Shown: positions 1 to 51,573 of the stretch, in pieces | How positions within the stretch are numbered: position 1 is the stretch's first letter | How the letters are laid out: the number at the start of each line of letters is the position of its first letter | Assembly: GCA_018380115.1 (NCBI GenBank) | Contig: JAGZUF010000002.1 | Location: 110,281 to 174,280 of the forward strand | Direction of reading: 5' to 3' | Origin: Oscillospiraceae bacterium | Lineage (GTDB): Bacteria > Bacillota > Clostridia > Oscillospirales > Ruminococcaceae | Length of the DNA stretch: 64,000 bases | Notes under the pieces: generated by a model | What the model was told of the DNA's origin: nothing | Seen by the model: only the letters and a program-made list of their open reading frames with translations | Database searches by the model: none | Translations under genes and position numbers: made by a program

Positions 1-269
1 GTCATCATAGATAATATGTCCTGTACCGATGCCCGCTTCGCGCAGGCCTGTACACAACCGCTCTGTGATGGCGCCCCGATTCAATGCGCTGACAAATTCG
101 GTTTTATGGCCGAATGATGCATAAACTGCCGCGGCGTTGGCCACCATGCCGCCCATCTGGGCGGACAGCATACGTGCGCCCACTTTCTCTTTTACCGCCG
201 GGAATCGCTGTACTTCATAATATTCATCCAGCGCCACATCCCCCACGAACACCGTGTAGTTCCGTTCCA
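1..269 (-). CDS. PfkB/ribokinase-family carbohydrate kinase, N-terminal part (gene runs off the window start)
   Basis: Minus-strand reading from ATG at 267-269 gives MERNYTVFVGDVALDEYY...GGMVANAAAVYASFG..., a PfkB N-terminal fold with a GG motif. A GGAGGG RBS lies upstream. The ORF is open to the window edge. Confidence 0.6.
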
Positions 270-370
270 TTCTATTGCCCTCCTTCAGCAATATTCTGGA
301 GTTTCTGCACATATCATATCACGAGAAATATACATTTGCAACAAAATTAAATATTTTTTTATAATTTTAT

Positions 371-400
371 TGATTAAATAAACAACATATGTTAACATGT
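371..400 (+). promoter_or_regulatory. Candidate promoter/operator of the ECF operon (TTGATT-N17-TAACAT with a perfect 10-bp palindrome AACATATGTT)
   Basis: AT-rich 110-bp region between divergent genes. Sigma70-like hexamers and an AACATATGTT palindrome sit between them. AAAGGAGG RBS at about 450. Confidence 0.3.
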
Positions 401-462
401 CTACAACAAGGTGCCAAAATAAATGCGCACCGCACACATGTCTATAAAAAGGAGGATTCATC

Positions 463-1095
463 ATGTCACAAATGAAGGGTTCCAAAAGCATCGGTAAAAT
501 GGCGTTTTTCCTGTTGCCGCTGGGCATTGCGGTAAATTTCATCGGTGGACAGGTAGCCCATTTGCTCAATCTGCCTATTTACCTTGATGCCATCGGCACT
601 ATGGTGGTTGCCGCTCTGTGCGGGCCTATTTACAGTGTAGCCACAGCACTCATCACAGGCCTTTTGATGTCCATCACTGCTCCCACCAATCTTATCTACA
701 TTGGCAATTATCTGGCAGTAGGCCTGTTTTCCGGCCTCTTCTCCTATTGGGGTTTCTTCAAAAATGTCTGGAAATCATGCATTGCGGGCGCCGTAGTAGG
801 CCTGTTCTGCGGCATTGCCGGCTCTACTGTCACTGTAGCTGTGCTGGGCGGCTACAGCGCCAGCATCCGCGGTATCATCACCGCTTTTCTTGCCCAGACG
901 TTTTCTCTGTCCATCCCGGTAGCTAATATGCTGTCCGAAATATCCACTGACATTTTGGATAAAATCCCTTCCGCTATCATCACTTACCTGCTGGTATTCC
1001 GCATTCCTAATAAATTCCTTTTGAAGCTGCCCTATGGCAATAAATATATATGGGGCGTAAAAAGGGATGGGGCAAAAGCGGAACAGACAAAATAA
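463..1095 (+). CDS. ECF transporter substrate-specific (S) component, substrate unknown
   Basis: 210 aa, five to six hydrophobic helices, a glycine-rich small membrane protein immediately upstream of ecfT/ecfA/ecfA'. RBS AAAGGAGG. Confidence 0.7.
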   Translation: MSQMKGSKSIGKMAFFLLPLGIAVNFIGGQVAHLLNLPIYLDAIGTMVVAALCGPIYSVATALITGLLMSITAPTNLIYIGNYLAVGLFSGLFSYWGFFKNVWKSCIAGAVVGLFCGIAGSTVTVAVLGGYSASIRGIITAFLAQTFSLSIPVANMLSEISTDILDKIPSAIITYLLVFRIPNKFLLKLPYGNKYIWGVKRDGAKAEQTK

Positions 1096-1174
1096 AACAA
1101 CCGAAAGCCTTGCGGAGCCGGCCCTGCATGATTTCTGCGGGCCGGTCCCATAATGCGGTAACAGGGTGTGAACT

Positions 1175-1960
1175 ATGAATACTGAATTTATCGATTCCTT
1201 CCGCAGGCCCAAGCTGCATGGCAACTTTATCATGGACCTGAACCCCTTTTCCAAACTGAACCTGTGCGCGCTGATTGCCGCCTTTGCAGGGCTGGCGGGC
1301 GGAGTAGCCTCTTCCGTAGCCGCTATTCTTTTGTACCTTGCCATCACGGCTGCCGCAGGGTGCCTGAAAAAATTCTGGGGTCTGTTCTGGAAAGTGGGCG
1401 CACTTTTATTTTTCTTTATTTTCCTCATTCGGTCGGCTTTCTGGCCCGGCACCACGCTTTTGTTTGAGTGGTGGATCGTGCACTGGACAGTGGAAGGCAT
1501 GCAAAACGGCCTATGGTTCGCCCTGCTGGTAATACAGATATGCGGCGCAGTAATGCTGTTTTATAACATCACTCCCATGAAAGACCTGATGTATGCCATC
1601 GAAATGTTGGGTGTTTCCCACTCGGCGTCATTTGTAGTGCTTTCTGCCATGCAGACCATCACAGACCTTGGCAAGACGGCAAATGTTATCATGGATTCAC
1701 AAAGTGCGCGCGGCATTGAGACATCCGGCGGGCTAAAAACCCGTTTCAAGGCATTCATCCCCATTCTGGGGCCGCTTGTTCTGGGTGCCATTGGTTCTAC
1801 GGAAGAAAAGACCATCGCTATGGAAACGCGTGCCTTTTCTTCCCACAAGCATACCACTCATATCTATGAGCTGCGCAAGACGCCGCTTTGGGAAAAGGCC
1901 GGGTGCATCCTGCTGGATATCGCCTTTGTGGCAGCCCTGGTGTGGAGGATAGCAGCATGA
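1175..1960 (+). CDS. ecfT: ECF transporter transmembrane component EcfT (CbiQ family)
   Basis: 261-aa polytopic membrane protein with CbiQ-like organisation. Its stop overlaps the ecfA start (ATGA). Confidence 0.85.
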   Translation: MNTEFIDSFRRPKLHGNFIMDLNPFSKLNLCALIAAFAGLAGGVASSVAAILLYLAITAAAGCLKKFWGLFWKVGALLFFFIFLIRSAFWPGTTLLFEWWIVHWTVEGMQNGLWFALLVIQICGAVMLFYNITPMKDLMYAIEMLGVSHSASFVVLSAMQTITDLGKTANVIMDSQSARGIETSGGLKTRFKAFIPILGPLVLGAIGSTEEKTIAMETRAFSSHKHTTHIYELRKTPLWEKAGCILLDIAFVAALVWRIAA

Positions 1961-2802
1961 ACAGCATTATATTATCAAACATTACCTACCGTTATCCGCT
2001 TACAGATTTCGATGCCCTGCACGATGTCAGTTTCTGCTTTGAAGAGGGTAAATTTTACGGCGTTATCGGGCCGAACGGCGCAGGCAAAACAACGCTTTGC
2101 AGCCTTGTAAAAGGGCTGATCCCGGGCTTCTTTCAGGGCGAATTGACAGGTGATGTGCAGATACTGGGCAAGCGTATGGAAAGCTGGGATGAAAGTGAGC
2201 TCACCTCACGCGTGGGCTATATCTTTCAAAACCCTTTCACGCAAATCAGCGGCGTAAAAGATACTGTGTTCGAAGAAATCGCCATCGGCCTTGAAAACCT
2301 GCGCATGCCCAAGGAAGAGATCATTGCGCGTGTAGTAGACATCGTGCGCCTCATCGGCATTGAGGATCTCATTGAACTGAACCCGAACGAACTGTCCGGC
2401 GGGCAGCGCCAGCGTGTGGCCTTCGCCTCGATACTTGCCATGGACTGTGATATCTATGTTATCGACGAGCCCACTTCCCAGCTGGACCCGGATGGCACGG
2501 AAAAGGTGTTCCAAATTATTTCCGCCCTGAAGGCCCAGAAGAAGACTGTTATTCTGGTAGAGCACAAAATAGATCTTCTGGCCCAATATGCGGACGAGAT
2601 TCTTGTAATGGAAAAGGGGGCTGTTCTAAAAAGCGGCCCTACTGCCGAGGTATTGTCAGACCTCTCGCTGCTGGAACACGAAGTAGCTCTGCCTCAGACA
2701 GTGCTGTTTGCGCGCGATATGGCTGTGGCGGGCAAAGCCCTGCATGGCACACCCATCACGCTGGAGCAGGCACGGCGCCTTGTGCTTGAAAGGGGGCAGT
2801 GA
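1957..2802 (+). CDS. ecfA: ECF transporter ATPase EcfA (ABC ATPase)
   Basis: Walker A GPNGAGKTT, signature LSGGQRQRVAFA, Walker B IYVIDEPTSQLD, H-loop VEHK. Start ATG 1957 overlaps the ecfT stop. The 23 upstream in-frame codons in the ORF track lack an RBS. Confidence 0.9.
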   Translation: MNSIILSNITYRYPLTDFDALHDVSFCFEEGKFYGVIGPNGAGKTTLCSLVKGLIPGFFQGELTGDVQILGKRMESWDESELTSRVGYIFQNPFTQISGVKDTVFEEIAIGLENLRMPKEEIIARVVDIVRLIGIEDLIELNPNELSGGQRQRVAFASILAMDCDIYVIDEPTSQLDPDGTEKVFQIISALKAQKKTVILVEHKIDLLAQYADEILVMEKGAVLKSGPTAEVLSDLSLLEHEVALPQTVLFARDMAVAGKALHGTPITLEQARRLVLERGQ

Positions 2803-2805
2803 ACC

Positions 2806-3600
2806 TTGGACTGCATTGAATTCAAAAACGCCTCGTTCTGTTATCCAAACGGCACCTTGGCCAATGAAGAGCTGAACCTGCATATCGGGCAGGGCGAGCG
2901 CGTAGCCATTATAGGTCAAAACGGCGCAGGCAAAACAACAGCCGTTAAAATGATGAACGGCCTGCACAAACCTACGCAGGGCGACGTAATTGTAAATGGT
3001 ATAAACACCAAAGAGCGCACCACAGCACAGATCTCTCACATGGTGGGCTATGTGTTCCAAAACCCAGATGACCAAATTTTTAACACCACTGTGCGTGCAG
3101 AGCTGGAGTTCTGGCCCCGGTATCAGAAGCTTTCGCCAGAGGATATGAACGCGCGCGTGGCGCGCGCCGCGGAGATGACAGGCATAGGCCAGTATATGGA
3201 GCTGAACCCTTATGAGATCCCTTATTCCACCAAAAAATTCGTATCCATTGCTGCCATTCTTGCAGTGCAGACGCCTTATCTTGTTCTGGACGAGCCCACT
3301 GCCGGGCAGGACACACACGGTGTGAACTGCCTTGTGCATATTATGGATACCCTTCGCAGCGAGGGCAAAGGTGTTATCGTCATCACACACGACATGGAAT
3401 TTGTAGCACGCAATTTTGAGCGCGTGGTGGTAATGGCGCACCGTCATATCATAGCTGACGGCTCTGTGCGCGAAGTATTTCAAAATGATGCTGTATTGCA
3501 TGCGGCAGCTATTCAGAAGCCGCAAATGGGCCAGCTGGCTTCCAGTTTGGGCCATCCGGATATTCTGTACAGCGAAGACCTCGTAAAAGTGCTGCATTGA
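2806..3600 (+). CDS. ECF transporter ATPase EcfA' with a degenerate signature (C-loop) motif
   Basis: Walker A GQNGAGKTT, Walker B YLVLDEPTAGQD, H-loop ITHD. The position of LSGGQ reads YSTKKFVSIAAILA. TTG start 4 nt after the ecfA stop. Confidence 0.85.
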   Translation: MDCIEFKNASFCYPNGTLANEELNLHIGQGERVAIIGQNGAGKTTAVKMMNGLHKPTQGDVIVNGINTKERTTAQISHMVGYVFQNPDDQIFNTTVRAELEFWPRYQKLSPEDMNARVARAAEMTGIGQYMELNPYEIPYSTKKFVSIAAILAVQTPYLVLDEPTAGQDTHGVNCLVHIMDTLRSEGKGVIVITHDMEFVARNFERVVVMAHRHIIADGSVREVFQNDAVLHAAAIQKPQMGQLASSLGHPDILYSEDLVKVLH

Positions 3601-3632
3601 AAAAGATATTACAGGAAGAAGCGGTTTTACTT

Positions 3633-4367
3633 ATGAGACAACATAACTTTTTATCATTATTTTCCAGGAAAAAACCCATCCTTGCCATGCTGCATCTGCG
3701 CGGCGGAAGCCGCCAGGAAAAGTACGAACACGCCCTGCTGGAGGCAGGCCAGCTTATCGGCGGCGGCGCAGATGCTGTGATTGTGGAAAACTATTTTGGA
3801 GATTATGAGGACATGGAAACGGTGCTGGAGGCCTTTTCCCGTGAGAAGGTGGACTTTGTCTATGGGGTGAATGCCCTGCACAATGATGCCCTTGGTTTTG
3901 AGTTTGCAAAGAAATATGGCGCGGGCTTCATTCAGCTGGATTCTGTAGCCGGGCATCTTACGCCCGAAGAGGATGCCTCCTTTGGCGAGGCCATTGCCAA
4001 ATGGCGGGCAGGTTACAGCGGTTTTGTCATTGGCGGCGTACGTTTCAAGTATCAGCCGTACCGTTCCGGCCGTACACTGGAAGATGACCTCCGCATCGGT
4101 ATGAGCCGCTGCGATGCCATTGCTGTCACAGGCGAAGGCACCGGCAAAACTACTCCCATGGAAAAGATACGCCAGTTCCGCAATATCATGGGTGATTTTC
4201 CCCTTGTAGTGGGGGCCGGCATGACCCCCGACACCTGTGCCGAACAATTCTCTGTGGCAGATGCAGCTATCGTTGGCAGTTATTTCAAGCAGGGATATCT
4301 TGATGACGGCTATGTAGAGCCCGCGCATGTACGCATCTTTATGCGTGCGGTGGAACAGTGCCGCTGA
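3633..4367 (+). CDS. BtpA/SgcQ-family TIM-barrel protein (function unknown), last gene of the ECF operon
   Basis: KPILAMLHLRGGS ... VVGAGMTPD matches the BtpA family (PF03437-like). An alternative TTG start at 3597 overlaps the ecfA' stop (TTGA), suggesting translational coupling. Confidence 0.75.
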   Translation: MRQHNFLSLFSRKKPILAMLHLRGGSRQEKYEHALLEAGQLIGGGADAVIVENYFGDYEDMETVLEAFSREKVDFVYGVNALHNDALGFEFAKKYGAGFIQLDSVAGHLTPEEDASFGEAIAKWRAGYSGFVIGGVRFKYQPYRSGRTLEDDLRIGMSRCDAIAVTGEGTGKTTPMEKIRQFRNIMGDFPLVVGAGMTPDTCAEQFSVADAAIVGSYFKQGYLDDGYVEPAHVRIFMRAVEQCR

Positions 4368-4438: not shown

Positions 4439-5692
4439 TCAGCCTTCCACGGGCTGGGCCGCGGCACCGGCTGTTTTCTCCTGCAGCGTCACATTCAGGC
4501 TGAACACCTGCTTACCGCGCACCACCTGCACCTCGATGGTGTCTCCCACCTGGTGCTGGTCCAAAACGGCGGTCACATCGCTGGTGCTGGACACCGCTGT
4601 TCCGTCTACGCTTACGAACATATCGCCCACCTTCAGGCCGGCCTTCTCTGCGGCCGAGCCCTCATCCACGCGCTGCACATATACGCCCAGTTGAGACACT
4701 CCTGCCTGCATGGCTGTTTGCAGGTCTGTAATGGCAACCACCTGGATGCCCATGGCCGGGCGCCCGCTGACATAGCCGTTCGCAATAAGCTGCTCTGCCA
4801 CTTCCATGGCGGTATTGATAGGCACGGCAAACCCGATGCCCTCTACATCTGAGCCGCCGGATTTCGCGTTCACGATGCCCACCAGCTCGCCCCTCTCATT
4901 AAACAGGCCGCCGCCGGAATTGCCCGGGCTGACGGCTGCCGACATCTGCAGCAGCGTCATCGTCTGGTTGTTTACGGTAACTTCACGGTCCAGTGCAGAA
5001 ATAATGCCGTCTGTCACCGTGCCGCCAAGCGTACCCAGCGGGTTGCCTACGGCCACAGCCGTCTCGCCCACCACCAGGCCGTCGGAATCGCCGATGACTG
5101 CGGGCGTCAGGCCGCTGGCGTCTATTTTCAGCACGGCGATGTCCGTTTTGTCGTCCGTGCCCACCACAGTGGCGTCATACTGCTGCTTATCGCTGGTGGT
5201 CACCTTCACAGTGCTCTGGCCTTCCACCACATGGTTGTTCGTAAGGATATAGCCGTCCTCCGAAATAATCACGCCGGAGCCCGCCCCGTTCGTGACATAC
5301 TGCGTGAAAATGCCGTTAGTCTGCACCGCCTCCGTGGTTACCTCCACCACGCTGGGGCCCACTTTCTGCGCAATCTGCGCAATACTCATTGCATCGCCGT
5401 TTGCTGCAGTGGTGCTGGCGCTGGCGCCGCTGCCATCCTGCACCGCTTTATATACCACCGGGCCGGACGCCCCTTTGATGAGCGAGGCACCCAGCACACC
5501 GCCGCCAACGCCCGCCAGTGCGCATACCAGCACCAGCGCAACAGCGGCCAGCGCCTTTTTTGTCCCCGCACGTTTTTTCTTCGGCGGCTGTCCGGGCTGT
5601 TCCGGCCCATTCAGCGAAGGGTCCTGCGGAGGTTGTGTATACTGCGGCTGTGCATAGCCGTTCGAATAATCATATTGCCAATTGTTATCCAT
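4439..5692 (-). CDS. htrA: HtrA/DegP-family serine protease with C-terminal PDZ domain (paralog 1)
   Basis: N-terminal TM anchor; catalytic triad contexts TNNHVV / DIAVLKI / GNSGGGL; PDZ-like C-terminus. Confidence 0.9.
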   Translation of the reverse strand: MDNNWQYDYSNGYAQPQYTQPPQDPSLNGPEQPGQPPKKKRAGTKKALAAVALVLVCALAGVGGGVLGASLIKGASGPVVYKAVQDGSGASASTTAANGDAMSIAQIAQKVGPSVVEVTTEAVQTNGIFTQYVTNGAGSGVIISEDGYILTNNHVVEGQSTVKVTTSDKQQYDATVVGTDDKTDIAVLKIDASGLTPAVIGDSDGLVVGETAVAVGNPLGTLGGTVTDGIISALDREVTVNNQTMTLLQMSAAVSPGNSGGGLFNERGELVGIVNAKSGGSDVEGIGFAVPINTAMEVAEQLIANGYVSGRPAMGIQVVAITDLQTAMQAGVSQLGVYVQRVDEGSAAEKAGLKVGDMFVSVDGTAVSSTSDVTAVLDQHQVGDTIEVQVVRGKQVFSLNVTLQEKTAGAAAQPVEG

Positions 5693-5822: not shown

Positions 5823-6357
5823 CATACCCTCAAGTCAGCCCCCCCCCGGCACAGCCTGGGGCTTGCGTAAGCTCTGGAAGGGCATATACCGGCAAGCCTC
5901 TCAAGAGGCGCTGAATTCCCTGTCTCCTGTATTATTTGCTACGCACCCCGTAAACGGGGTGCTTCCCATTACATGCTGCATCTTTTGGGTGTTGAATACC
6001 ATCCCGCTTCGCCCGAAACTGACAGCGAAAGCCTTTTCACTCTCCCCGGCCAGCCGGGGGGCGTTTCGCTAAAGCTGGCCAAATCAAACCCACCGGCTGG
6101 GCCGGTGGGTTTGGCTGACATGATAAGCGCCCGCTGCAGGCATTTCGCGCAAGGCGCGCGAGGGCTTATTTCGCCCGTTCCCCGGCGCTGCAGCCCGCAA
6201 ACGAGCATCCGACAAATTTTCATGTCCGGCCGGCCCGCTGCCGATGGTCCGCTTCGCCCGGTGCCTGAAGCAAGGGCGCCTTTACAGGGCGGGCCAGCCG
6301 GTGGCTTTTTCCTTCCCAAAAAGCGCCACCCCGGCTACGGCCGGGGCGGCAGGGGCT
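5823..6357. repeat. Copy A of a novel ~260-bp GC-rich module arranged as a ~535-bp long imperfect palindrome (left arm 5823-6082, central perfect hairpin 6083-6112, inverted diverged right arm 6113-6357)
   Basis: Nucleotide-level homology to 40645-41195 and 50221-50480. Central hairpin CAAACCCACCGGC-tgg-GCCGGTGGGTTTG. The right arm reverse complement retains the terminal CCCCGGC-N-GCCGGGG hairpin. Confidence 0.6.
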
Positions 6358-19950: not shown

Positions 19951-20382
19951 TTACAAAAACTGCGAAAGCTGGCCTGCGTAAACATTCTCTGCATGCTGCA
20001 GGCGCTGGGCCAGCGCCACAGCGCCGGGGTTGGCGTTCTCGGCCTCCTTGATGGCCATGGTGAGGTCCGTCACGCCCATATGGTTTCCCTCTATCATCAT
20101 CTGCGCCAAATTGCGCGAGGACGCATCGCGCATTGTCTTCATGGCAATGCCCATCTGGGCGCTCATCTTTGCCATGGCGCTTTCAGGCTTCACCTCACAG
20201 CCGTCTGCCGCCAGCATGGCGCGCGCCCGGTTCGAAATATCCTCATGTGTGGCAAGCTGTTCGTGTATCTTCTTTTTCAGCTCGGCGTCCTTGGTGATGC
20301 CTATCAGCTTGTTCAGCGTAGTCTGGCACATCTGCGTATTTTTCACCACGGCGCCCAGCAGCTTCTGCGTCTGGCTGTCCAT
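19951..20382 (-). CDS. Hypothetical alpha-helical protein (143 aa)
   Basis: Strong RBS AGAAGGAGAGAC before the ATG at 20382; helical, no recognisable motif. The longer ORF-track N-terminus lacks an RBS. Confidence 0.5.
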   Translation of the reverse strand: MDSQTQKLLGAVVKNTQMCQTTLNKLIGITKDAELKKKIHEQLATHEDISNRARAMLAADGCEVKPESAMAKMSAQMGIAMKTMRDASSRNLAQMMIEGNHMGVTDLTMAIKEAENANPGAVALAQRLQHAENVYAGQLSQFL

Positions 20383-20704
20383 ATCGCGTCTCTCCTTCTC
20401 TGCGGTTTGCCTTGCTTTGGCGCACACGGGCGCTTGCGGCCTTTGCGCGCTGCCGTTAGTATGCGCATTCTGAATCAAAACATGCACCCCGGCTTAACAG
20501 GCCGTTCTCCCGGCCCTGCTGTCGAAAAAGTGTATCTCCTCCGCAAACAATATTTATATTCAACCCGACTGATAACTGTCACAAAATTTCATCGAATAAA
20601 TTGTATATTCCAACAAAAATACCTCGCGGAAAAATTTTCTTTTTCTGTTGTATCTATGCAAAATCAGGCAATGTACATAGAAGCGCATGAAAACATCCGT
20701 CATA

Positions 20705-20745
20705 TTGACGATTTGTTATGAAATTAACGAACAAATTCGTCAAGA
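20705..20745. promoter_or_regulatory. Candidate operator: 13/14-bp inverted repeat TTGACGATTTGTT-N14-AACAAATTCGTCAA upstream of the TRAP operon promoter
   Basis: Seen directly in the sequence, inside an unusually AT-rich 240-bp upstream region. Confidence 0.35.
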
Positions 20746-20802
20746 TAAAATTTTAAGTTTGGAGAAATTGTATAAATTCTATATAAAATATATTTAATTT
20801 TA

Positions 20803-20832
20803 TGCAATTTGACATAAAATTCTGAAATTGTT
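20803..20832 (+). promoter_or_regulatory. Sigma70-type promoter of the TAXI-TRAP operon (TTGACA-N17-TATAGT)
   Basis: Canonical hexamers with 17-nt spacing, about 110 nt upstream of the start codon at 20944. Confidence 0.5.
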
Positions 20833-20943
20833 ATAGTATGGACAGAAAAGTGGAGAGAACCATCCGGCAAGGATCCACCGGATATCTTTTCGCGAAACCC
20901 ACCAATGAAATCCACCTTTTGATGTGAGACAAAGGAGCGCAAT

Positions 20944-21963
20944 ATGAAAAAGGCAATCGCAATTTTTCTTGTACTGACCTTTTGCAGCATGTTGTTAGCC
21001 GGCTGCTCTGATGCCCCTGCAGACGGCAGCATTGCCGGCGGTACTTCCATTTTGAATATCGGCACCGGCTCGGTAGGCGGCACAGATAATACCGTGGTGG
21101 AGGCGATCTCCTCTGTGGTCAACCAGAAGACCGGCCTGAAGACCTCTACCATCACCACCAATGGAGGCACTGAAATCATCTATCTGCTAGAGACCGGCGA
21201 CATTCAGGCCGGTTATTCCGGCACCATCGACCTGATCAATGCTTTGAACGGGGCCAGCTCTTTCGACCACGCCGTAGACCCCTCTCATATGCTGCAGTGC
21301 TTCGGCTTCGTCACATGGGATCTGCCCCTGGTAGTGCTGGATAATTCCGGCATTGAAAACTATGAGGATCTGGCCGGAAAGCGTGTCGGCCTCTCGCCGG
21401 TGGGTTCTTCCACCGCTGAGGTGCTGATGCTCGTTCTGGAGGCCTATGACCTGACTGACAGCGTCACCATAGAGAATTTCACCTGGAATGAAGGATACAC
21501 GGCATTGAAGGACGGCCGTATCGACGCCATGGTGGGTTCCTGGGCCAACGGCGATCCCATCAGCGGGCTGATCGAGCTCAAAGCCACCAAAGATATTCGT
21601 ATTCTGAATATGAGCGAAGAGGCAGCGCAGGCGGTGGCGCAGGCCAATGCGGGTGTGAGCAGCGGTGTGCTCACTAGTGAAAACGACGATTCTATCGCCC
21701 CCGGCGAAGAAGTGATCGCCCCTACCAATTCGGGTGTTATCATCGCCGATGCCAGCGTGGATGAAGAAAGCATTTATCAGTACACCAAGGCTGTGCTGGA
21801 AAATCTGGAAGAGCTGAAGGGCATCTCCAACTATTTTGACGCCTTTGAAGATGTTTGCATGAGCGTATGTGTAGAAGGCGTCCCCTTCCACCCTGGCGCG
21901 GCAAAAGCGCTGAAAGAAGCCGACCTGTGGGAAGACAGGTTCACTGTATATGACGGGGTATAA
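20944..21963 (+). CDS. TAXI-family TRAP transporter solute-binding lipoprotein
   Basis: Signal peptide plus lipobox (LLAGCS); the LNIGTGSVGGTDNTV block is typical of TAXI (NMT1_3-like) receptors. Confidence 0.85.
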   Translation: MKKAIAIFLVLTFCSMLLAGCSDAPADGSIAGGTSILNIGTGSVGGTDNTVVEAISSVVNQKTGLKTSTITTNGGTEIIYLLETGDIQAGYSGTIDLINALNGASSFDHAVDPSHMLQCFGFVTWDLPLVVLDNSGIENYEDLAGKRVGLSPVGSSTAEVLMLVLEAYDLTDSVTIENFTWNEGYTALKDGRIDAMVGSWANGDPISGLIELKATKDIRILNMSEEAAQAVAQANAGVSSGVLTSENDDSIAPGEEVIAPTNSGVIIADASVDEESIYQYTKAVLENLEELKGISNYFDAFEDVCMSVCVEGVPFHPGAAKALKEADLWEDRFTVYDGV

Positions 21964-38761: not shown

Positions 38762-40615
38762 ATGAGCAGAAAGCAGAAGAGAGGGCTTGCCCGCATTGGT
38801 GCGGGCGCCGTGCTGCTGGCGGCGGCATGGCTGCTGCCGCTGGAGGGGTGGGCCTCGCTGGCGGCCTTCGCCGTGCCCTATGCCGTGGTGGGCTGGGATG
38901 TGCTGTGGAAGGCCGTGCGCAACATTCTGCACGGGCAGGTGTTCGACGAAAACTTTTTGATGGCGCTGGCCACCGTGGGCGCGTTTGCCACGGGCGAATA
39001 TTCAGAGGGCGTGGCGGTTATGCTGTTCTACCAGATAGGCGAATGGTTTCAGCGCTATGCGGTGGGGCGCTCGCGCAAGTCTATTACAGCGCTGATGGAT
39101 ATCCGGCCGGACCACGCCAACCTTGTGGGGCCGGACGGCACCGCGCAGGAGGTAGACCCTGATGAAGTAAGCGTGGGCAGCACCATTCTGGTAAAGCCGG
39201 GCGAGCGTGTGCCGCTGGACGGCACCGTGCTGGACGGCGACAGCATGCTGGACACAGCGGCCCTCACCGGTGAAAGCGTGCCGCGCCACGCGGCGGCGGG
39301 TGACGCCGTCGTCAGCGGCTGCATCAACGGCAGCGGGCTTCTGCGCGTGCGGGTAGATAAGCCGTACGGTGAATCTACCGTGGCCAAAATTCTGGACCTT
39401 GTGGAAAACGCAGGCGAGAAAAAGGCCAAGGCAGAAAACTTTATCACAAAATTTTCCCGCTGGTACACCCCTGCCGTGGTGATAGCGGCGCTGGCGCTGG
39501 CCGTGCTGCCCCCGCTTGTGCTAGGCGGCGGCTGGGCCGGCTGGGTGCACCGCGCGCTTATCTTCCTTGTCATCAGCTGCCCGTGCGCGCTTGTCATCAG
39601 CGTGCCGCTGTCTTTCTTCGGGGGCATCGGCGGGGCCTCCCGGCGCGGCATTCTGGTGAAGGGCGGCGCGTATATGGAGGTGCTGGCCAATACCGGCACT
39701 GTGGTGTTCGACAAAACGGGCACGCTGACAAAGGGCGTGTTCAGCGTGACGGCCGTGCACCCGCATGAAATAGACAAAGCGCAGCTTGTAGAGCTGGCCG
39801 CACTGGCCGAAAGCTATTCCACGCACCCCATTGCGGCCTCGCTGCGCACGGCCTACGGCCAGGCGCCCGACACCGCGCGCGTGGCAGATTATGAAGAGCT
39901 CTCCGGCCGGGGAGTGCGCGCCAAAGTGGACGGCCGCACCGTATGCGTGGGCAACGGCAGGCTGATGGACGAGGCCGGTGCCGAATGGCACGAATGCCAC
40001 CTGACGGGCACGGTGGCGCATGTGGCGGTGGACGGCCGCTATGCCGGGCACATTGTCATTTCCGACGAGGTGAAGCCGGACGCCGCCGCAGCCATTGCCG
40101 CGCTGAAGGCGGCAGGCGTGCACAAGACGGTGATGCTGACGGGCGACGCCAAAGAGGTGGGCGAAGCCGTGGCAAAGCAGCTTGGCATAGACGAGGCGCA
40201 CACACAGCTTCTGCCCGCCGGCAAGGTGGAGCATATGGAACAGCTGCTGGCAGGCCAGCCGAAGGGCGAGGCACTTGCCTTTGTGGGTGACGGCGTGAAC
40301 GACGCCCCGGTTCTGGCCCGCGCCGATGTGGGCATCGCCATGGGCGGCATCGGCTCTGACGCAGCCATAGAGGCCGCCGACGTGGTGCTGATGGACGACA
40401 AGCCCTCGAAGCTGGCCGAGGCCGTGCGCATCTCGCGGCGCACCCTGCGCATTGTGCATCAGAACATCGTGTTCGCGCTGGCAGTGAAGGCGCTGGTGCT
40501 GGTGCTGGGCGCGCTGGGCATGGCTAATATGTGGGAGGCCGTGTTTGCAGACGTGGGCGTGATGGTGCTTGCCATTCTGAACGCCATGCGCGCGCTGAAG
40601 GCGCCGCGGGAATAG
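38762..40615 (+). CDS. P1B-type heavy-metal translocating ATPase (CPC motif; Cd/Zn/Pb-type likely) lacking its own N-terminal HMA domain
   Basis: TM CPC (SCPCALVISVP), DKTGTLT, HP (SYSTHPIAAS), GDGVNDAP; 617 aa. Confidence 0.95.
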   Translation: MSRKQKRGLARIGAGAVLLAAAWLLPLEGWASLAAFAVPYAVVGWDVLWKAVRNILHGQVFDENFLMALATVGAFATGEYSEGVAVMLFYQIGEWFQRYAVGRSRKSITALMDIRPDHANLVGPDGTAQEVDPDEVSVGSTILVKPGERVPLDGTVLDGDSMLDTAALTGESVPRHAAAGDAVVSGCINGSGLLRVRVDKPYGESTVAKILDLVENAGEKKAKAENFITKFSRWYTPAVVIAALALAVLPPLVLGGGWAGWVHRALIFLVISCPCALVISVPLSFFGGIGGASRRGILVKGGAYMEVLANTGTVVFDKTGTLTKGVFSVTAVHPHEIDKAQLVELAALAESYSTHPIAASLRTAYGQAPDTARVADYEELSGRGVRAKVDGRTVCVGNGRLMDEAGAEWHECHLTGTVAHVAVDGRYAGHIVISDEVKPDAAAAIAALKAAGVHKTVMLTGDAKEVGEAVAKQLGIDEAHTQLLPAGKVEHMEQLLAGQPKGEALAFVGDGVNDAPVLARADVGIAMGGIGSDAAIEAADVVLMDDKPSKLAEAVRISRRTLRIVHQNIVFALAVKALVLVLGALGMANMWEAVFADVGVMVLAILNAMRALKAPRE

Positions 40616-40644
40616 CACCTCCGGCGCATATTCAAAGTCAGGCC

Positions 40645-41195
40645 CCCGGCAAAGCCGGGGGCTTGCGTATGCTCTTCCAGGGCATACGCAAGCCTTTCAA
40701 GAGGCACTGAATGCTCTGTCTTTTGCATCACTTGCCCCGCCTCCCGCAAACGGGGTTCCTCCCGCTGCGTGCTGCCTCTTTTTGGGATTGAATGCCATCC
40801 CGCTTCGCCCGGAACTGACAGCGAAAACCTTTTTACTCTCCCCGGCACAGCCGCGGGGTGGCGTTTTGCTAAAACAAATAAAACAGGCAGGCGGCCTGCG
40901 GGTTCCCCCGCAGGCCGCCTGTTCTGTGTTTCGTTATATGCTTTGACGATATCCCCCCTGCTGGGGCGGGGAAAAGCTTCCGCCTCAAACAGCGGGCGAA
41001 GCGGGGAATGGAAAGCGGCCTCGCGGCCAGTAAAAAAGGCCTTCTGAAAAAGCAGTGCCCGTTTACGGGCTGCCGTGCAGGTGATGCAGGGGGCGGGTTC
41101 TATTCCATGCCTTCTGAGGGGCCTGCCGGCACAAAGCGGCACTTTCAGAGCTTGCGCACGCCCCGGCTTTGCCGGGGGACATGGTTAAAAAAGCC
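40645..41195. repeat. Copy B of the ~260-bp module family arranged as a ~550-bp long imperfect palindrome (left arm 40645-40887, central perfect hairpin 40888-40925, inverted right arm 40926-41195)
   Basis: Left arm homologous to 5823-6082 and 50221-50480. The reverse complement of the right arm aligns to the left arm (CCCCCGGCAAAGCCGGGG, CCCGTAAACGGG, CCCGCTTCGCCC blocks). Central hairpin ACAGGCGGCCTGCGGG-ttcc-CCCGCAGGCCGCCTGT with T-runs on both strands. Confidence 0.6.
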
Positions 41196-41562
41196 GCCGG
41201 ATGTGCGCCGCAAGAGGCTTCGGCCTCCCGCGCCGGGCAAAGCCGTCTGCGGGCAGCGCCTCTCAGGAACAAAAGCTCTGCTGCCGGAACGGCCCTTTCC
41301 TCCCCTGTTTTCGGGCCGCAGGCAGGCTGAACCCTTCTGCGGCCCGCGACGCGTGCCGGCAATGCGCCAAGCGCCCTCCACACCGTATAACTGCCGCCGC
41401 TGCCTGCCCAGGGGCCGAAGCAGAGGCCGGGGCCCCGGCATGGCCGGCGCAGAAAAGAGGGCTTTCCAGCCTATTGTGTGTTTGCCCAGGCCAGATGCGC
41501 TGCGCCAGGCTGCCCGGCGCGCGCCCTATTAAGGTGAAAGGAGCCTGCGCGCCGCACGGCCG

Positions 41563-42429
41563 TCACCCCAGCATGGGCTTCAGCAGAAGGAAGTAAACCA
41601 GCACCACGGCGCCCAGCACGATGCGGTACCACCCGAACACCTTGAAATCGTGCCGCTTCACATAGTTCATCAAAAAGCGGATGGCCAGCATGCTCACCAG
41701 AAAAGCCGTCAGCATGCCCACGCCCAGCACGGCCAGCTCGGCAGCAGAGAAGGAAAGGCCGAATTTCAAAAGCTTGATAAGGCTGGCGCCCGCCATGACA
41801 GGAATGGCAAGAAAGAAGGTGAACTCTGCCGCCAGCGTGCGCGAGCAGCCCAGCAGGATGCCGCCCAGAATAGTGGCGCCGGAGCGGGACGTGCCCGGCA
41901 CGAGGCTGAGCACTTGAAACATGCCGATGCCGAACGCGGCCGCCCAGCTGAGGCTTTCCACCGTGGCCATTTTCACCCGGCGCGGGTTCGATTCCACCAC
42001 AATGAACAGCACGCCGTACAGAATGAGCATGGCGGCCACCACGGGCGGGTTGTGCAGGTGCTCGGTCATCCAGTCGTCCAGCGGAAGGCCTATAACCATG
42101 GCGGGCAGAACGGCTACCAGCACCTTGAACCACATCACCCATACGTCCTGCCTGCAATAGCGGCGCACAAGGTAGTGCCCTGCGCCCTCGCCGTTGTGGC
42201 GCACGGCCCTGCGGTTGCAGAAGGGCCAAAGCTGGCCCCAGAACAGCACCACCACCGCCAGAATGGCCCCGAACTGTATGACCACGTCGAACATTTCCTT
42301 GAAGGCGTCCGACATGCCCAGCGAGATGAACTCATCCGCCAGAATGAGGTGCCCCGTGCTGGAGATGGGCAGCCATTCCGTAATGCCCTCCACAATGCCC
42401 AGAATGGCCGCTTTCAACAAATCTAGCAT
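41563..42429 (-). CDS. uppP: Undecaprenyl-diphosphate phosphatase
   Basis: BacA/UppP blocks EWLPISSTGHL and GTSRSGATI. GGAGG RBS before the ATG at 42429. Confidence 0.9.
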   Translation of the reverse strand: MLDLLKAAILGIVEGITEWLPISSTGHLILADEFISLGMSDAFKEMFDVVIQFGAILAVVVLFWGQLWPFCNRRAVRHNGEGAGHYLVRRYCRQDVWVMWFKVLVAVLPAMVIGLPLDDWMTEHLHNPPVVAAMLILYGVLFIVVESNPRRVKMATVESLSWAAAFGIGMFQVLSLVPGTSRSGATILGGILLGCSRTLAAEFTFFLAIPVMAGASLIKLLKFGLSFSAAELAVLGVGMLTAFLVSMLAIRFLMNYVKRHDFKVFGWYRIVLGAVVLVYFLLLKPMLG

Positions 42430-49916: not shown

Positions 49917-50220
49917 TCCAGAACACCCCTTTGCCCGCCCCGCGCGCCCCTGACGGCGCCGGGCGGAAATGTCACACATCCCGCGCGCGGGCATGCGGCG
50001 GACATGCCCGCCTGCACAGCCGCAGCACTCGGAAAGCTGTCAGCTTTATCATAGCACAAACCCGCCGGAATGGAAAGCGACAAAGTCACACAGCGCCGCG
50101 CCGGGCGGCGGCCCTCTTCAGACTTTCCTCTGCTTCAAGTTACGGCCCGCAAAATAGAGCGCGCCTCCATTGTGCGGCGCGCCGCGCCGCCGTATAATAA
50201 AGGCAGGCCGGCATGAACTA

Positions 50221-50480
50221 AAGTCAGCCTCCCCGGCAAGGCCTGGGGCTTGCGTAAGCCCCCTGGAAAGGCATACTGCCGGCAAGCCTCTCAGGAGGCA
50301 CTGAATGCTCTGTCTCCTGCATCACCTGTCCCGTCCCCCCCCCGTAAACGGGATTCTTGCCCCCCTTGCGTGCTACATCTTTTTGTATTGTATACCATCC
50401 CGCTGCGCTCGAAGCTGGCAGCGAAAGCCCTTTTACTCTCCCCCGCACAGTGGGGGAGTGTCGTTTTGCGAAAGTAAAAA
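50221..50480 (+). repeat. Copy C of the ~260-bp module family: single arm only, ending exactly at the RBS of the XRE-TPR gene
   Basis: Aligns to 5823-6082 (closest) and 40645-40887. No central hairpin or inverted arm; instead AAAAACAGAGAGG RBS and the ATG at 50498. Confidence 0.55.
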
Positions 50481-50497
50481 ACAGAGAGGAACTGCTA

Positions 50498-51573
50498 TGA
50501 AATTTCAGGATATTGTACGCCAGAAGCGCAAAGAACTTGGCCTTACGCAGGAGCAGGCAGCCCGCAGGCTGGGCGTTTCGCCGGCTGCCGTGAGCAAGTG
50601 GGAAAGCGGCCAAAGCCTGCCGGACACGCCCCTGTTCGCCCCGCTGGCAAGGCTTCTGCACACAGACCTCAACACCCTGCTCTCTTTTGAGGAAGAGCCG
50701 GACGACGCGCGCATGGCGCAGCTTTTGAACGAGACCGCCCGCCTGCTTCAGGCAGAGGGCTTTGAGGCGGCTTTTGCCTATGCCATGGACGTACTGCGGG
50801 AATATCCCTCCTGCGATATGCTGGCCTACGGCTTTGCCGCCTCGCTGCTGGGCGGGCTGGAGATGGCCCCGCCCGCCGCCGGGCGCGAAGCCTTTGAAGC
50901 AGAGCTGGACGCGCTTTTAGAGCGCGCGGCACAGGCTGCCAGTACCGAAGTGCGCATACCTGCCCAGCAGCTTTTAATCAACCGCTGCATTCAAAAGAAG
51001 GACATCGCCCGCGCCGAAGCGCTTTTGGGCCAGCTGCCGCAGGCCTCGTTCAACCCCGTGCTTGTCCGCGCTTCCATCCACCGCGCCAGGGGCGAGGACG
51101 AACAGGCGGCCCGCCTGCTGGAAGGGTTTGTGGCGCAGAGCGCGTCCAGCCTGGAGGCGGTGATGATGCAGCTTTGCGCCATTGCGCTGCAAGAGGGCGA
51201 CGCGCAAGCCGCGCAGGCCATTGCGCACACGGCGCAGGAGGCCCACCGCCTGCTGGGAATGTGGGGCCCGGGCATGGCAACGGCCATGCTGCAGCTGTGC
51301 GCGCAGAAAAAGGACATGCCCGGCACGCTGGCGCATCTGGAAGAATTTCTGGCCGCGCTGCGGCAGCCCTGGCAGGTAAACGCCACGCCGCTGTACCGCC
51401 ATACGCCCGCCAAAAGCGCAGACCTTGGGCCCAGCTTTGCCGCCATGATAGCACGCGGCCTGCGGGAGGACGCAGATTTCGCCTTCCTGCGCGGCAACGC
51501 GGAATTCGAGGCCATACTGCAAAAATTTGAACAGGCGGCAGCCCCCGGGCCGAAGCCGGCAGAGGGCCCCTGA
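50498..51573 (+). CDS. XRE-family HTH transcriptional regulator with a C-terminal TPR-like helical domain (RNPP-like architecture)
   Basis: HTH LGLTQEQAARRLGVSPAAVSKWESGQ followed by about 290 aa of Ala/Leu-rich helical repeats. RBS AGAGAGG. Upstream in-frame extension in the ORF track rejected. Confidence 0.8.

What the first reader, a model, noticed from the sequence alone, without database searches (positions are those of the whole stretch)
40645..41195. Copy B of the 260-bp module: a ~550-bp imperfect palindrome filling the convergent gap between the P1B ATPase and uppP; its central hairpin looks like a bidirectional terminator
The left arm (40645-40887) aligns to copies A and C. The centre is a perfect 16-bp stem ACAGGCGGCCTGCGGG/CCCGCAGGCCGCCTGT, flanked by T-runs on both strands (TCTGTGTTTCG on the plus strand; TTTTATTTGTTTTAG on the minus strand). 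The right arm (40926-41195) is the diverged reverse complement of the left arm, with shared blocks CCCCCGGCAAAGCCGGGG, CCCGTAAACGGG, CC(A)TTCCCCGCTTCGCCC. The module's outermost hairpin therefore appears at both ends in inverted orientation, as expected for terminal inverted repeats. The two-arm architecture repeats at two unrelated loci (A and B). This argues for an element that is propagated as a unit rather than a locally evolved terminator.
Basis: seen in the sequence. Interest (0 to 1): 0.7.

Follow-up and report, generated by a model that had tools for sequence, protein, structure and literature searches.

The report
Repeat copies flanking an old terminator
The 550-bp "palindrome" is an ancestral two-way transcription terminator with copies of a ~250-bp hairpin-rich repeat inserted separately on each side. 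This repeat is an apparently undescribed family in a gut Ruthenibacterium lineage, and its copies usually lie with the same end against a terminator hairpin.

Summary
The sequence observation is real. Module B (40638-40887, +) and a diverged reverse-complement copy B' (41189-40922, -) converge on a perfect 15-bp hairpin (40888-40921).

The palindrome is not a transposon with terminal inverted repeats that spreads as one unit.
- Sister Ruthenibacterium lineages keep the same ATPase/uppP junction with a gap of only 132-137 nt. That gap holds the orthologous hairpin with clean A5/T5 tracts, so the hairpin is ancestral and the modules are insertions on each side.
- B is closer to copies at other loci (82-83%) than to B' (72%).
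- At locus A the second copy is a degenerate direct copy, not an inverted one.

The module belongs to a dispersed family. At least 32 copies occur in 173 kb sampled from one related MAG, and diverged members occur in other Oscillospiraceae.
- It has no open reading frame, no terminal inverted repeats and no Rfam match.
- About eight helices are supported by compensatory changes.
- About 25 of 30 full copies have their A-rich 3' end 2-15 nt from a different terminator-like hairpin.

Copy C is also absent from the orthologous site in a sister lineage.

Best reading: a non-autonomous mobile repeat that targets the foot of hairpins. The enzyme is unknown. The closest analogue is Yersinia YPAL/RU-2.

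The parts
38762..40615 (+). Heavy-metal P1B-type ATPase gene (context). Its stop codon lies 22 nt before module B.
   Evidence: Pfam E1-E2_ATPase plus Hydrolase, preceded by HMA and ArsR/HTH_5 genes. Sources name it a cadmium/heavy-metal translocating ATPase.
40638..40887 (+). Module B, a full-length type-1 copy. It starts ..AG|TCAGG and ends in an A-rich tail, ..AAATAAAACAG(G), at the 5' foot of the terminator hairpin.
   Evidence: nhmmer E 1e-68; covariance model 252.9 bits. It is 82% identical to A and 83% to C. It is absent from the orthologous junction in L045 and L047.
40643..40661 (+). Helix H1, the 5' terminal hairpin of module B: CCCCCGGC-AAA-GCCGGGGG.
   Evidence: 91-93% of cells are paired and 3-5 of 8 pairs show double changes. 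In the MAG orthologue only the loop has changed.
40662..40692 (+). Helix H2, a long hairpin: CTTGCGTATGCTC-TTCCA-GGGCATACGCAAG.
   Evidence: A compensatory T-A to C-G change separates the window from the MAG orthologue.
40693..40704 (+). Helix P3: CCTT-TCAA-GAGG.
   Evidence: C-G to G-C swaps occur in diverged members. The helix is deleted in strain L058 at locus C.
40742..40755 (+). Helix P5, the invariant motif CCCG-YAAA-CGGG. In diverged members the 5' half can instead pair with a downstream TTTTTTACGGG.
40801..40823 (+). Helix P6, the conserved block CGCTTCGC...ACAGCG.
40840..40858 (+). Helix H3', the 3' hairpin: CCCCGGC-ACA-GCCGCGGGG. It resembles H1 in sequence and lies on the same strand.
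   Evidence: Direct-repeat family D1. All 7 pairs show double changes in the 61-copy alignment.
40888..40921 (.). Ancestral bidirectional intrinsic terminator hairpin (15 perfect bp, 4-nt loop). It is not part of the repeat.
   Evidence: The orthologous hairpin GGCGGCCTG(T/C)GG..CC(A/G)CAGGCCGCC, with A5 and T5 tracts, lies in the 132-137-nt gap of sister lineages. The loop is flipped between strains.
40922..41189 (-). Module B', a full-length diverged (type-3-like) copy on the minus strand. Its A-rich 3' tail abuts the other foot of the same hairpin.
   Evidence: nhmmer E 1e-40; covariance model 146 bits. It is 72% identical to B, z = 20. Its orthologue is present in MAG L034, with an insertion of roughly 90 nt.
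41212..41363 (-). Module B'', a degenerate tandem copy upstream of B' on the minus strand.
   Evidence: nhmmer on this region alone gives E 2e-4, model positions 55-207. The MAG orthologue is detected at E 2e-7 and 4e-6.
41433..41466 (-). Fragment resembling the 3' part (H3' region) of a further copy.
   Evidence: Weak nhmmer match, model positions 197-230, E 0.07 on the region alone. The hairpin motif was found.
41470..41486 (+). T-rich stretch CCTATTGTGTGTTTGCC. It is probably the original T-tract of the terminator, displaced about 550 nt by the minus-strand insertions (inference).
   Evidence: By-eye comparison with the empty site L045...CCCCTTTTTGCTGTTTTTTGCAACC.. followed by CCTGGCTGCCC.
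41563..42429 (-). uppP/bacA gene (context), convergent with the ATPase gene.
   Evidence: Pfam BacA on the called 288-aa gene.
5842..6087 (+). Module A, a type-1 copy of the same family. It is antisense to both neighbouring genes.
6077..6323 (+). Module A2, a degenerate direct tandem copy. Its 3' end abuts the terminator (6324-6351) of the convergent minus-strand gene.
   Evidence: Covariance model 51.9 bits, E 9e-14; nhmmer E 1.6e-6. The terminator is called.
50221..50486 (+). Module C, a type-1 copy. It lies between a sigma-70-like promoter (TTGTGC 50170-50175, TATAAT 50193-50198) and the ribosome-binding site and ATG (50497) of an HTH_3 regulator gene.
   Evidence: It is absent from the orthologous promoter-gene interval in L055, whose gap is 305 nt against 580 nt.

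Best explanation
The region is an ancestral bidirectional intrinsic terminator shared by the convergent ATPase and uppP genes. Copies of a ~250-nt non-coding interspersed repeat have been inserted independently on each side of it: one on the ATPase side (B) and two or three in tandem on the uppP side (B', B'' and a fragment). Each copy points its A-rich 3' end at the foot of the hairpin, so the two sides look like one 550-bp palindrome.

The repeat is a non-autonomous element.
- It begins ..AG|TCAGG and carries similar GC-rich hairpins near both ends on the same strand (H1 and H3').
- It has about six further helices and ends in an A-rich tail (..CAAAACAG or CAAAAG).
- It has multiplied in this Ruthenibacterium lineage.

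Inferred, not shown:
- An enzyme encoded elsewhere places copies next to GC-rich stem-loops in one polarity. The enzyme was not identified.
- The tail, read on the other strand (CTGTTTT..), replaces the T-tract it displaces, so termination of the convergent gene is largely kept and the insertion is tolerated.
- Once inserted, copies are transcribed as 3'-UTR extensions, or at locus C as a 5'-UTR. Their stems stay under purifying selection, either for an RNA role such as 3'-end stability or attenuation, or for continued mobility.
For: 1. Empty sites at this locus.
- ATPase homologues of 91% (P0044; L044-L046) and 87% (P0089; L047) identity have the same gene order.
- Their ATPase-BacA gap is 137 or 132 nt, against 948 nt here.
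- That gap holds the orthologous hairpin flanked by A5 and T5 tracts and no module.

2. A second empty site, at locus C.

3. The family is dispersed.
- The genome scan and nhmmer/covariance-model searches find 61 matches.
- At least 32 distinct copies lie in 173 kb sampled from MAG C039_43.
- Diverged members occur in Angelakisella, Avimonas, Ruminococcaceae D5, Marseille-P2935 and other MAGs.

4. Polarity towards hairpins.
- About 25 of 30 full copies are followed within 2-15 nt by a different strong hairpin, usually with a T-run (alignment).
- Mean downstream dG is -26 kcal/mol against -16 upstream.
- The downstream gene is convergent in 32 of 41 cases.
- Ends of tRNA operons are used in the same way.

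5. The arms are independent.
- B and B' are 72% identical, whereas B is 82-83% identical to A and C.
- B' groups with the diverged type-3 copies.

6. Behaviour like a mobile element.
- One internal-deletion derivative keeps both ends and sits at its own terminator (L015 2954-2877).
- L011 keeps the AAGTCA 5' end despite an internal deletion.
- No conserved neighbouring gene family or adjacent transposase was found: 104 neighbours gave 143 Pfam families.

7. Structure.
- 89% of cells are paired against 30-47% in slid controls.
- On the MAFFT alignment, 12 pairs have double changes (4 of 500 shuffles reach this).
- On the 61-copy model-fitted alignment, 32 of 44 pairs have double changes (0 of 500 shuffles).
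- Between the window and MAG orthologues, paired columns differ at 9 of 88 positions against 34 of 154 unpaired, and 6 of 8 changed pairs stay paired.
- Folding the module plus hairpin gives z = -6.75.
Against: - No transposase or other mobilising gene was found. No pair of recently diverged filled and empty sites was available, so the exact ends are inferred from where similarity stops.
- Short direct repeats at the junctions are only suggestive. The anchored test gives permutation p = 0.0013, but it is driven by a few copies, part of the right-hand 'repeat' is the element's own tail, and the unanchored test shows nothing.
- Copies within one genome are 80-90% identical and none are near-identical, so current activity is not shown.
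- The preference for hairpin feet could come from selection rather than targeting: only insertions that spare genes and terminators may survive.
- Locus C and L039 lie next to a gene start, not a terminator.
- G-T (51) versus A-C (38) mismatches give no clear strand asymmetry, so RNA-level and DNA-level structure cannot be told apart.
- Transcription was not measured.
Confidence: 0.75

Rival explanations
1. The module is primarily a family of structured non-coding RNA genes or UTR domains with a cellular function. Possible roles are a 3'-end stabiliser, an attenuator, or a small RNA that uses host terminators. On this view its spread reflects selection for that function, not selfish mobility.
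For: - Helices are supported by compensatory changes across genera.
- Stems are conserved between orthologues.
- The polarity is constant, so any transcript would end at a terminator.
- A good promoter lies directly upstream at locus C.
- Folding gives z = -6.75.
Against: - No conserved promoter lies upstream of the copies, and the sequence 5' of AGTCAGG is unrelated between copies. The scan found no promoter-like site upstream of copy A or B on the module strand.
- Many copies start 1-50 nt after a stop codon.
- There is no association with any gene family.
- There are more than 30 copies, with tandem arrays and decayed copies.
- A helix is deleted in one strain at locus C.
- There is no Rfam family.
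- This rival does not exclude the main explanation, because a mobile element can be co-opted.
Confidence: 0.2
2. One reading: a ~550-bp palindromic (foldback) transposable element with terminal inverted repeats and its own central terminator, propagated as one unit.
For: The arms align significantly in inverted orientation. The same arrangement is present in the related MAG.
Against: - The central hairpin is present, without arms, at the orthologous site of sister lineages.
- The arms are less alike (72%) than B is to copies at other loci (82-83%).
- The minus side carries extra tandem copies, so the structure is not symmetric.
- Locus A is a direct tandem.
- No other locus of about 45 has the inverted arrangement.
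Confidence: 0.03
3. The element is a single-strand (HUH/Y1) transposon derivative: an IS200/IS605-type PATE, or a REP/BIME-like unit moved by a RAYT. The enzyme would recognise the two similar same-strand hairpins and insert 3' of a short target without duplication.
For: - Similar hairpins lie near both ends on one strand, and there are no terminal inverted repeats.
- The polarity is strict.
- The left flank almost always ends in AG, and the element ends in CAG or AAG.
- Five of six single-side orthologue changes in paired positions give G-T on the module strand.
Against: - The left junction is only about 5 nt from the foot of H1. That leaves no room for the guide/cleavage-site geometry known for IS608 (established knowledge, not tested here).
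- Some copies show junction repeats that vary with the flank.
- No Y1 transposase appears among the most frequently matched Pfam families of 104 neighbouring proteins. The rest of the genome was not searched.
- The hairpin motif does not occur alone outside modules in the window, unlike REPs.
Confidence: 0.15
4. The region is a local duplication or inversion that evolved in place around the terminator, with no mobility.
For: The tandem copies on the uppP side, and hairpin-sharing arrays at other loci (L019), could arise by unequal recombination between H1 and H3'.
Against: Related copies lie at dozens of unlinked loci beside unrelated genes. Empty orthologous sites exist at two loci.
Confidence: 0.02

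Closest known systems
YPAL / RU-2 elements of Yersinia (De Gregorio et al. 2006, as summarised in PMC2229807)
   Same: - Both are non-coding interspersed repeats that are not A+T-rich.
- Neither has TA termini or true terminal inverted repeats; the repeats are internal.
- Both insert next to or across regions of dyad symmetry.
- Both have variable or short junction repeats.
- Both are co-transcribed with upstream genes.
- Both show filled and empty sites between sister taxa (for YPAL).
   Different: - There is no sequence relationship, and the phylum differs.
- This element is about 250 nt, against 168 nt for YPAL.
- It has a multi-helix architecture bounded by two similar hairpins, not one long palindrome.
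- It has a strict polarity, with an A-rich 3' tail against the hairpin foot.
- It has no continuous open reading frame.
- Target duplications are not established here.
REP / BIME / REPIN elements (mobilised by RAYT)
   Same: - Both have GC-rich extragenic hairpins at the 3' ends of genes and between convergent genes.
- Both form mosaic and tandem arrangements.
- Roles proposed for REPs in termination and mRNA stability are plausible here too.
   Different: - REPs are 20-40 nt units that occur alone or as inverted pairs.
- Here the hairpin is found only as part of a 250-nt conserved unit.
- No GTAG or CGTC tag is present.
- The presence of a RAYT was not tested.
MITEs in the strict sense (Correia/NEMIS, RUP, ERIC, TIMEs)
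   Same: They share the size class, the lack of coding capacity, the high copy number, the intergenic location, the RNA folding potential, and the existence of internal-deletion derivatives.
   Different: - This element has no terminal inverted repeats and no TA or fixed-length target duplication.
- Its two termini are unrelated apart from the sub-terminal hairpins.
BOX elements of Streptococcus pneumoniae and bcr repeats of the Bacillus cereus group
   Same: All are modular, structured intergenic repeats in Firmicutes, with a variable number of units and no identified transposase.
   Different: They are unrelated in sequence and architecture. No preference for terminator feet has been described for them (from my own knowledge).
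Bacterial class C group II introns
   Same: They are a known example of a mobile element that uses intrinsic-terminator stem-loops as a landmark and inserts beside them in a fixed polarity.
   Different: - This element is too small to be such an intron.
- It has no Rfam group II intron match.
- No reverse transcriptase was found.
- It lies on the opposite side of the hairpin relative to its own strand.

Membership tests
MITE (DDE-transposon derived) | Terminal inverted repeats at the two ends | tested here: not met
   The 5' end (AG|TCAGG-H1-GCTTGCG..) and the reverse complement of the 3' end (CTGTTTTG..GCTTTAGCGAAACG..H3') do not match. Only the internally palindromic hairpins resemble each other, and they lie at different distances from the ends.
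MITE (DDE-transposon derived) | Target-site duplication of fixed length | tested here: inconclusive
   The anchored junction-repeat test gives p = 0.0013, with 3-6-nt matches in 6 of 17 copies. Part of the right-hand match is the element's own conserved tail, and the unanchored test shows no excess.
MITE (DDE-transposon derived) | Short, non-coding and multi-copy, with filled and empty sites | tested here: met
   The element is about 250 nt. Indels are not multiples of three, and the only ATG is not conserved. At least 32 copies occur in one MAG. Empty sites exist at two loci.
IS200/IS605-derived PATE | Sub-terminal hairpins at both ends on the same strand, with no terminal inverted repeats | tested here: met
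   H1 and H3' are similar hairpins about 196 nt apart on one strand.
IS200/IS605-derived PATE | Insertion 3' of a fixed tetra- or pentanucleotide, without duplication, and a cognate Y1 transposase in the genome | tested here: inconclusive
   The left flank ends in AG in about 20 of 24 copies, but the preceding bases vary. No Y1 transposase is among the 25 most frequently matched Pfam families shown for the 104 neighbouring proteins. Whole genomes could not be searched.
REP / REPIN-RAYT | A 20-40-nt palindromic unit that occurs alone or as inverted doublets in high copy number | tested here: not met
   In the 64-kb window the hairpin motif occurs only inside modules or module remnants: 6 matches, all within them.
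YPAL/RU-2-like repeats | Insertion next to or across dyad symmetries, with variable junction repeats and internal rather than terminal inverted repeats | tested here: met
   About 25 of 30 copies abut a hairpin, and the junction repeats vary. This is a functional resemblance only. Sequence homology to YPAL could not be tested because no YPAL sequence was available.
Intrinsic (Rho-independent) bidirectional terminator: the central hairpin 40888-40921 | A GC-rich stem-loop with an A-tract upstream and a T-tract downstream, at the 3' ends of convergent genes | tested here: met
   The stem has 15 perfect pairs, 13 of them G-C, and is called on both strands. The orthologues in the empty sites have A5 and T5 tracts. 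In the window the tracts are interrupted (TTCTGTGTTTCG; CCTGTTTTATTTG). Actual termination was not measured.
Any curated RNA family (Rfam 15) | A covariance-model match at the gathering score | tested here: not met
   No hit in the whole window. Only sub-threshold chance matches occur in 40500-41400. In ten related loci the only matches are tRNAs and a 6S RNA.
Riboswitch or cis-regulatory leader | A consistent position upstream of a functionally coherent set of genes on the same strand | tested here: not met
   The downstream gene is convergent in 32 of 41 cases. The neighbours span 143 Pfam families with no enrichment.
Group II intron (class C) | Intron RNA domains (domain V) and a reverse transcriptase | tested here: not met
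   There is no Rfam intron match, the element is only 250 nt, and no reverse transcriptase is among the most frequently matched Pfam families of the 104 neighbouring proteins.

The most novel reading that the evidence does not exclude
The module could define a new class of 'terminator-homing' element. On this reading it is a structured, ~250-nt hairpin-bounded unit that an unknown structure-specific enzyme, possibly acting on single-stranded DNA or through an RNA, places precisely at the foot of intrinsic-terminator stem-loops in one polarity. It would carry its own A-rich tail to rebuild the U-tract it displaces. Copies would later be retained as functional 3'-UTR RNA domains.
Probability: 0.2. 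Interest if true: 0.75.

Novelty: new variant of a known kind. Interest (0 to 1): 0.5.

Why it matters
The result explains a striking palindrome as a by-product of a simple rule: copies of one repeat stack against both feet of an old terminator. It also documents a repeat family, apparently undescribed, that has expanded in a common human-gut Ruthenibacterium lineage and is absent from the same sites in its sister lineages.

If the preference for hairpin feet is mechanistic rather than selective, the family would be a useful case for studying how mobile DNA recognises nucleic-acid structure. It would also show how 3' UTRs and terminators are remodelled in high-GC Firmicutes.

There are practical consequences. 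The copies lengthen 3' UTRs by 250-550 nt and weaken the A/T tracts of terminators. They are likely to fragment metagenome assemblies. They also provide lineage-specific markers.

Tried and rejected
- **Rfam.** Gathering threshold on the whole window, permissive threshold on the region, and ten related loci: no family.
- **BLAST of module B against plasmid and phage collections.** No match. One IMG/VR contig carries a tandem pair.
- **Search for a mobilising gene.** I scanned 104 predicted proteins within 2.5 kb of copies against Pfam. No transposase or reverse transcriptase is among the 25 most frequently matched families listed, and no family is enriched. My gene calls are crude (ORF length plus GC3) and mis-call some small genes.
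- **Metagenome scan for the 'ancestral' form with the long-range CCCGTAAA/TTTTTRCGGG helix.** It returned only 4 loci and no partner gene.
- **Target-site duplication.** Anchored and unanchored tests disagree, so it is left open.
- **Retroposition (SINE-like).** Considered because of the A-rich tail and apparent 5'-truncated copies. Rejected as the leading idea because L011 keeps the 5' terminus with an internal deletion, and the L015 mini-copy keeps both ends.
- **Small ORF or type I toxin.** The ATG in B is not conserved, and indels are not multiples of three.
- **Riboswitch or leader.** Rejected on gene context.
- **RNA versus DNA structure from G-T versus A-C asymmetry.** Not decisive.
- **RNAalifold on a plain MAFFT alignment.** It gave an incomplete structure, so I specified the helices by hand and tested them.
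- **Strain-level presence/absence.** Exact-protein look-ups at loci A, B and C showed no polymorphism within the species.
- **Literature searches.** Nothing was found on this family.
Full report
**1. What is in the sequence**

Between the stop codon of a P1B-type heavy-metal ATPase gene (38762-40615, +) and that of the convergent uppP/bacA gene (41563-42429, -) lie 948 nt of non-coding DNA. Searching the region against the window finds three plus-strand copies of a ~250-nt module and one inverted copy:
- A at about 5842-6074
- B at 40634-40885
- C at 50221-50474
- B' at 41189-40928 (minus strand)

A profile HMM confirms all four as full-length copies, with E values from 1e-40 to 1e-79.

B and B' converge on a perfect hairpin, 40888-40902 paired with 40907-40921. 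The consensus scan calls this hairpin terminator-like on both strands.

B aligned with the reverse complement of the right arm gives 72% identity over 227 columns. The z-score is 20 against dinucleotide shuffles.

**2. The region holds more copies, and locus A is not a palindrome**

Beyond B', a degenerate minus-strand copy lies at about 41363-41212 and a fragment at 41466-41433. The orthologous copy in a related MAG is detected more clearly.

At locus A, the DNA after copy A (6077-6323) is a decayed copy in the same orientation. The covariance model gives 51.9 bits, E 9e-14, and nhmmer gives E 1.6e-6. It is not an inverted arm. The 'hairpin' after A is the first hairpin of this tandem copy. 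The real terminator of the convergent gene lies at 6324-6351, just after A2.

**3. Origin and spread**

The ATPase protein is found on human-gut metagenome contigs and is named by sources as Ruthenibacterium sp..

I scanned one genome per GTDB species for two invariant blocks, CCCGYAAACGGG and CCCGCTNCGCNCG. The scan returned 39 loci:
- 22 come from a single MAG, Ruthenibacterium sp. C039_43.
- Single hits come from R. lactatiformans 585-1, Angelakisella, Avimonas, Ruminococcaceae D5, Marseille-P2935 and several MAGs.
- A few hits in other phyla are chance matches. Neither nhmmer nor the covariance model recognises them.

In the 173 kb sampled from the MAG there are 32 distinct copies, 22 of them full-length. 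Three subfamilies are visible:
- Type 1 includes A, B and C.
- Type 2 has a different variable hairpin.
- Type 3 is a diverged group and includes B'.

Direct tandem arrays are common (L019, L031, L036, L038, L040). The inverted pair is found only here and at its orthologue L034.

**4. The central hairpin is ancestral and the modules are insertions**

ATPase homologues of 91% and 87% identity come from sister Ruthenibacterium lineages. They lie in the same gene order (ArsR, HMA, ATPase, then convergent BacA and an Exo_endo_phos gene), but the ATPase-BacA gap is only 137 or 132 nt.

That gap contains AAAAAGGGGCGGCCTGTGGGTTTCACAGGCCGCCCCTTTTT, or its L047 variant. The stem matches the window's GGCGGCCTGCGGG...CCCGCAGGCCGCC in 12 of 13 positions of each arm. 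These loci contain no module.

The closely related MAG (about 90-97% nucleotide identity across the syntenic region) has B, B' and B'' at the same place. The simplest history is an ancestral bidirectional terminator, with insertions on both sides in the common ancestor of the window species and the MAG.

Locus C gives a second case. A sister lineage whose HTH protein is 78% identical keeps the promoter TTGTGC-17-TATAAT and the gene. Its interval is 305 nt against 580 nt and lacks the module.

**5. The rule the copies follow**

In an alignment of 27 full copies with flanks, similarity starts sharply at ..AG|TCAGG. It ends in an A-rich tail (..AAAGC-N-CAAAACAG or CAAAAG).

The next thing downstream is nearly always a strong GC-rich hairpin, usually with a T-run, and its sequence differs at every locus. 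About 25 of 30 copies show this, counting three that the automated search missed but that are plain in the alignment. Mean dG is -26 kcal/mol downstream against -16 upstream.

Gene context agrees:
- The downstream gene is convergent in 32 of 41 cases.
- The upstream gene is on the same strand in 27 cases, often ending 1-50 nt before the module, and on the opposite strand in 13.
- Ends of tRNA operons are used in the same way.

A copy therefore sits on either side of a terminator, always with its 3' tail against the hairpin foot. Two occupied sides give the 'palindrome' of locus B. Read on the other strand, the tail is CTGTTTT.., which would stand in for the displaced T-tract. That last point is my inference.

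**6. Nature of the element**

It does not code for protein. Indels are not multiples of three, and the only ATG in B is not conserved. Its neighbours are housekeeping genes of 143 Pfam families. No family is enriched and no transposase appears among the most frequent matches listed. It has no Rfam match and no match in plasmid or phage collections.

A 95-nt derivative with an internal deletion keeps both ends and lies at its own terminator (L015 2954-2877). Another copy keeps the AAGTCA 5' end with an internal deletion. This is the behaviour expected of a DNA element whose ends matter. It argues against 5'-truncating retroposition.

Short junction repeats (CAAAAG, GAAAG, CAGCG, AGAG) occur in some copies, and an anchored permutation test gives p = 0.0013. 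However, the right-hand repeat overlaps the element's own tail, and an unanchored test shows nothing. I leave target duplication open.

**7. Structure**

I defined nine helices by hand: H1, a three-part H2, P3, P4, P5, P6 and H3'.
- On an unfitted MAFFT alignment of 28 copies, 89% of cells pair, against 30-47% when partners are slid. Twelve pairs show double changes (4 of 500 shuffles reach this) and 33 cells do (0 of 500).
- On a 61-copy alignment fitted to the covariance model, which leans towards the structure, 32 of 44 pairs show double changes (0 of 500 shuffles).
- Between the orthologous B copies of the window and the MAG, paired columns differ at 9 of 88 positions against 34 of 154 unpaired. 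Six of eight changed pairs remain paired, and one change is a T-A to C-G double change.
- The module plus hairpin folds with z = -6.75.

The stems are therefore under constraint. Whether that constraint acts on RNA or on single-stranded DNA cannot be decided. Family-wide, G-T mismatches number 51 and A-C mismatches 38.

In diverged members the CCCGTAAA half of P5 can instead pair with a downstream TTTTTTACGGG and close a multi-branch domain. Type 1 has lost most of that partner.

**8. Comparison with known systems**

The kind is known: small non-autonomous interspersed repeats of bacteria, reviewed in PMC2229807.

The nearest analogue in behaviour is YPAL/RU-2 of Yersinia. YPAL is not A+T-rich, has no TA termini, has internal rather than terminal inverted repeats, and has variable duplications of 3-26 bp. 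[quoted passage not shown]

The present family differs from YPAL in several ways:
- sequence, host phylum and size
- a multi-helix architecture bounded by two similar same-strand hairpins
- a strict polarity with an A-rich tail

It fails the defining tests for several other families:
- a classical MITE, because it has no terminal inverted repeats
- REP/REPIN, because the hairpin never occurs alone
- riboswitches, group II introns and any Rfam family

An IS200/IS605-type single-strand mechanism fits the same-strand hairpins and the polarity. But the left junction lies only about 5 nt from H1, which does not fit the known geometry. No Y1 transposase was seen among the most frequently matched families of the neighbours, and the rest of the genome was not searched. 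I give this mechanism about 15%.

**9. Verdict**

It is wrong that the palindrome is the unit with terminal inverted repeats, and wrong that locus A repeats the architecture.

The best explanation is independent, polar insertions of a non-autonomous structured repeat on both sides of an ancestral terminator (confidence about 0.75). The mobilising enzyme and any RNA function remain unknown.

Novelty: a new variant of a known kind. Interest is moderate. It would be higher if the placement at the hairpin foot proves to be a targeting mechanism.

Noticed in passing
window 40903-40906 (hairpin loop); L001-L004 near 5128-5165; L034 near 1875: The apical part of the central terminator hairpin occurs in both orientations among strains of the same species. 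It reads GGG-TTCC-CCC in the window, L001 and L002, and the approximately reverse-complemented GGGGGAAATCC or GGGGGAAACCC in L003, L004 and the MAG. This is a small loop 'flip' of the kind produced by recombination or template switching within a palindrome.
   Followed up: partly
window 50170-50500; L055 2400-2500; L058 2241-2478: Copy C sits inside the 5' UTR of an HTH_3 (XRE-type) regulator gene, between a good promoter and the ribosome-binding site. The sister lineage without the module has a perfect 10-bp palindrome, TGCACGTGCA, at the equivalent place, which may be an operator. One strain (L058) has lost the 16-nt P3 helix of the module.
   Followed up: partly
L015 2954-2877 (minus strand): This is a ~95-nt internal-deletion derivative of the module, with H1 and the start of H2 joined to H3' and the tail. 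It lies at the foot of its own terminator hairpin and is the only such mini-copy found in the loci held.
   Followed up: yes
L006 2407-2638; L018 3015-3238; L031 5748-6026: Modules or module arrays converge on the terminators of tRNA gene clusters, not only on those of protein-coding genes.
   Followed up: partly
L034 about 1540-1660, compared with window about 41090-41120: In the related MAG the orthologue of B' carries a replacement or insertion of roughly 90 nt relative to the window. A second indel of about 20 nt lies further towards uppP. The decayed copies on the uppP side are therefore still being remodelled.
   Followed up: no
window 57001-64000, 20001-21000 and 1-4000: G+C falls to 42-50% in these stretches, against about 60% elsewhere in the window. 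They may be horizontally acquired segments. I did not examine them.
   Followed up: no
L063 4311-4727 (IMG/VR contig IMGVR_UViG_3300006217_002476): A contig classed as viral carries a tandem pair of diverged modules. I did not examine whether this is a prophage region or a misclassified chromosomal fragment.
   Followed up: no
L019 2048-2586; L036 1835-2307; window 6074-6112: In several tandem arrays the upstream units end at model position about 207-210, and a single hairpin serves as both the H3' of one unit and the H1 of the next. This suggests that arrays can grow by unequal recombination between the two similar hairpins as well as by new insertions.
   Followed up: partly
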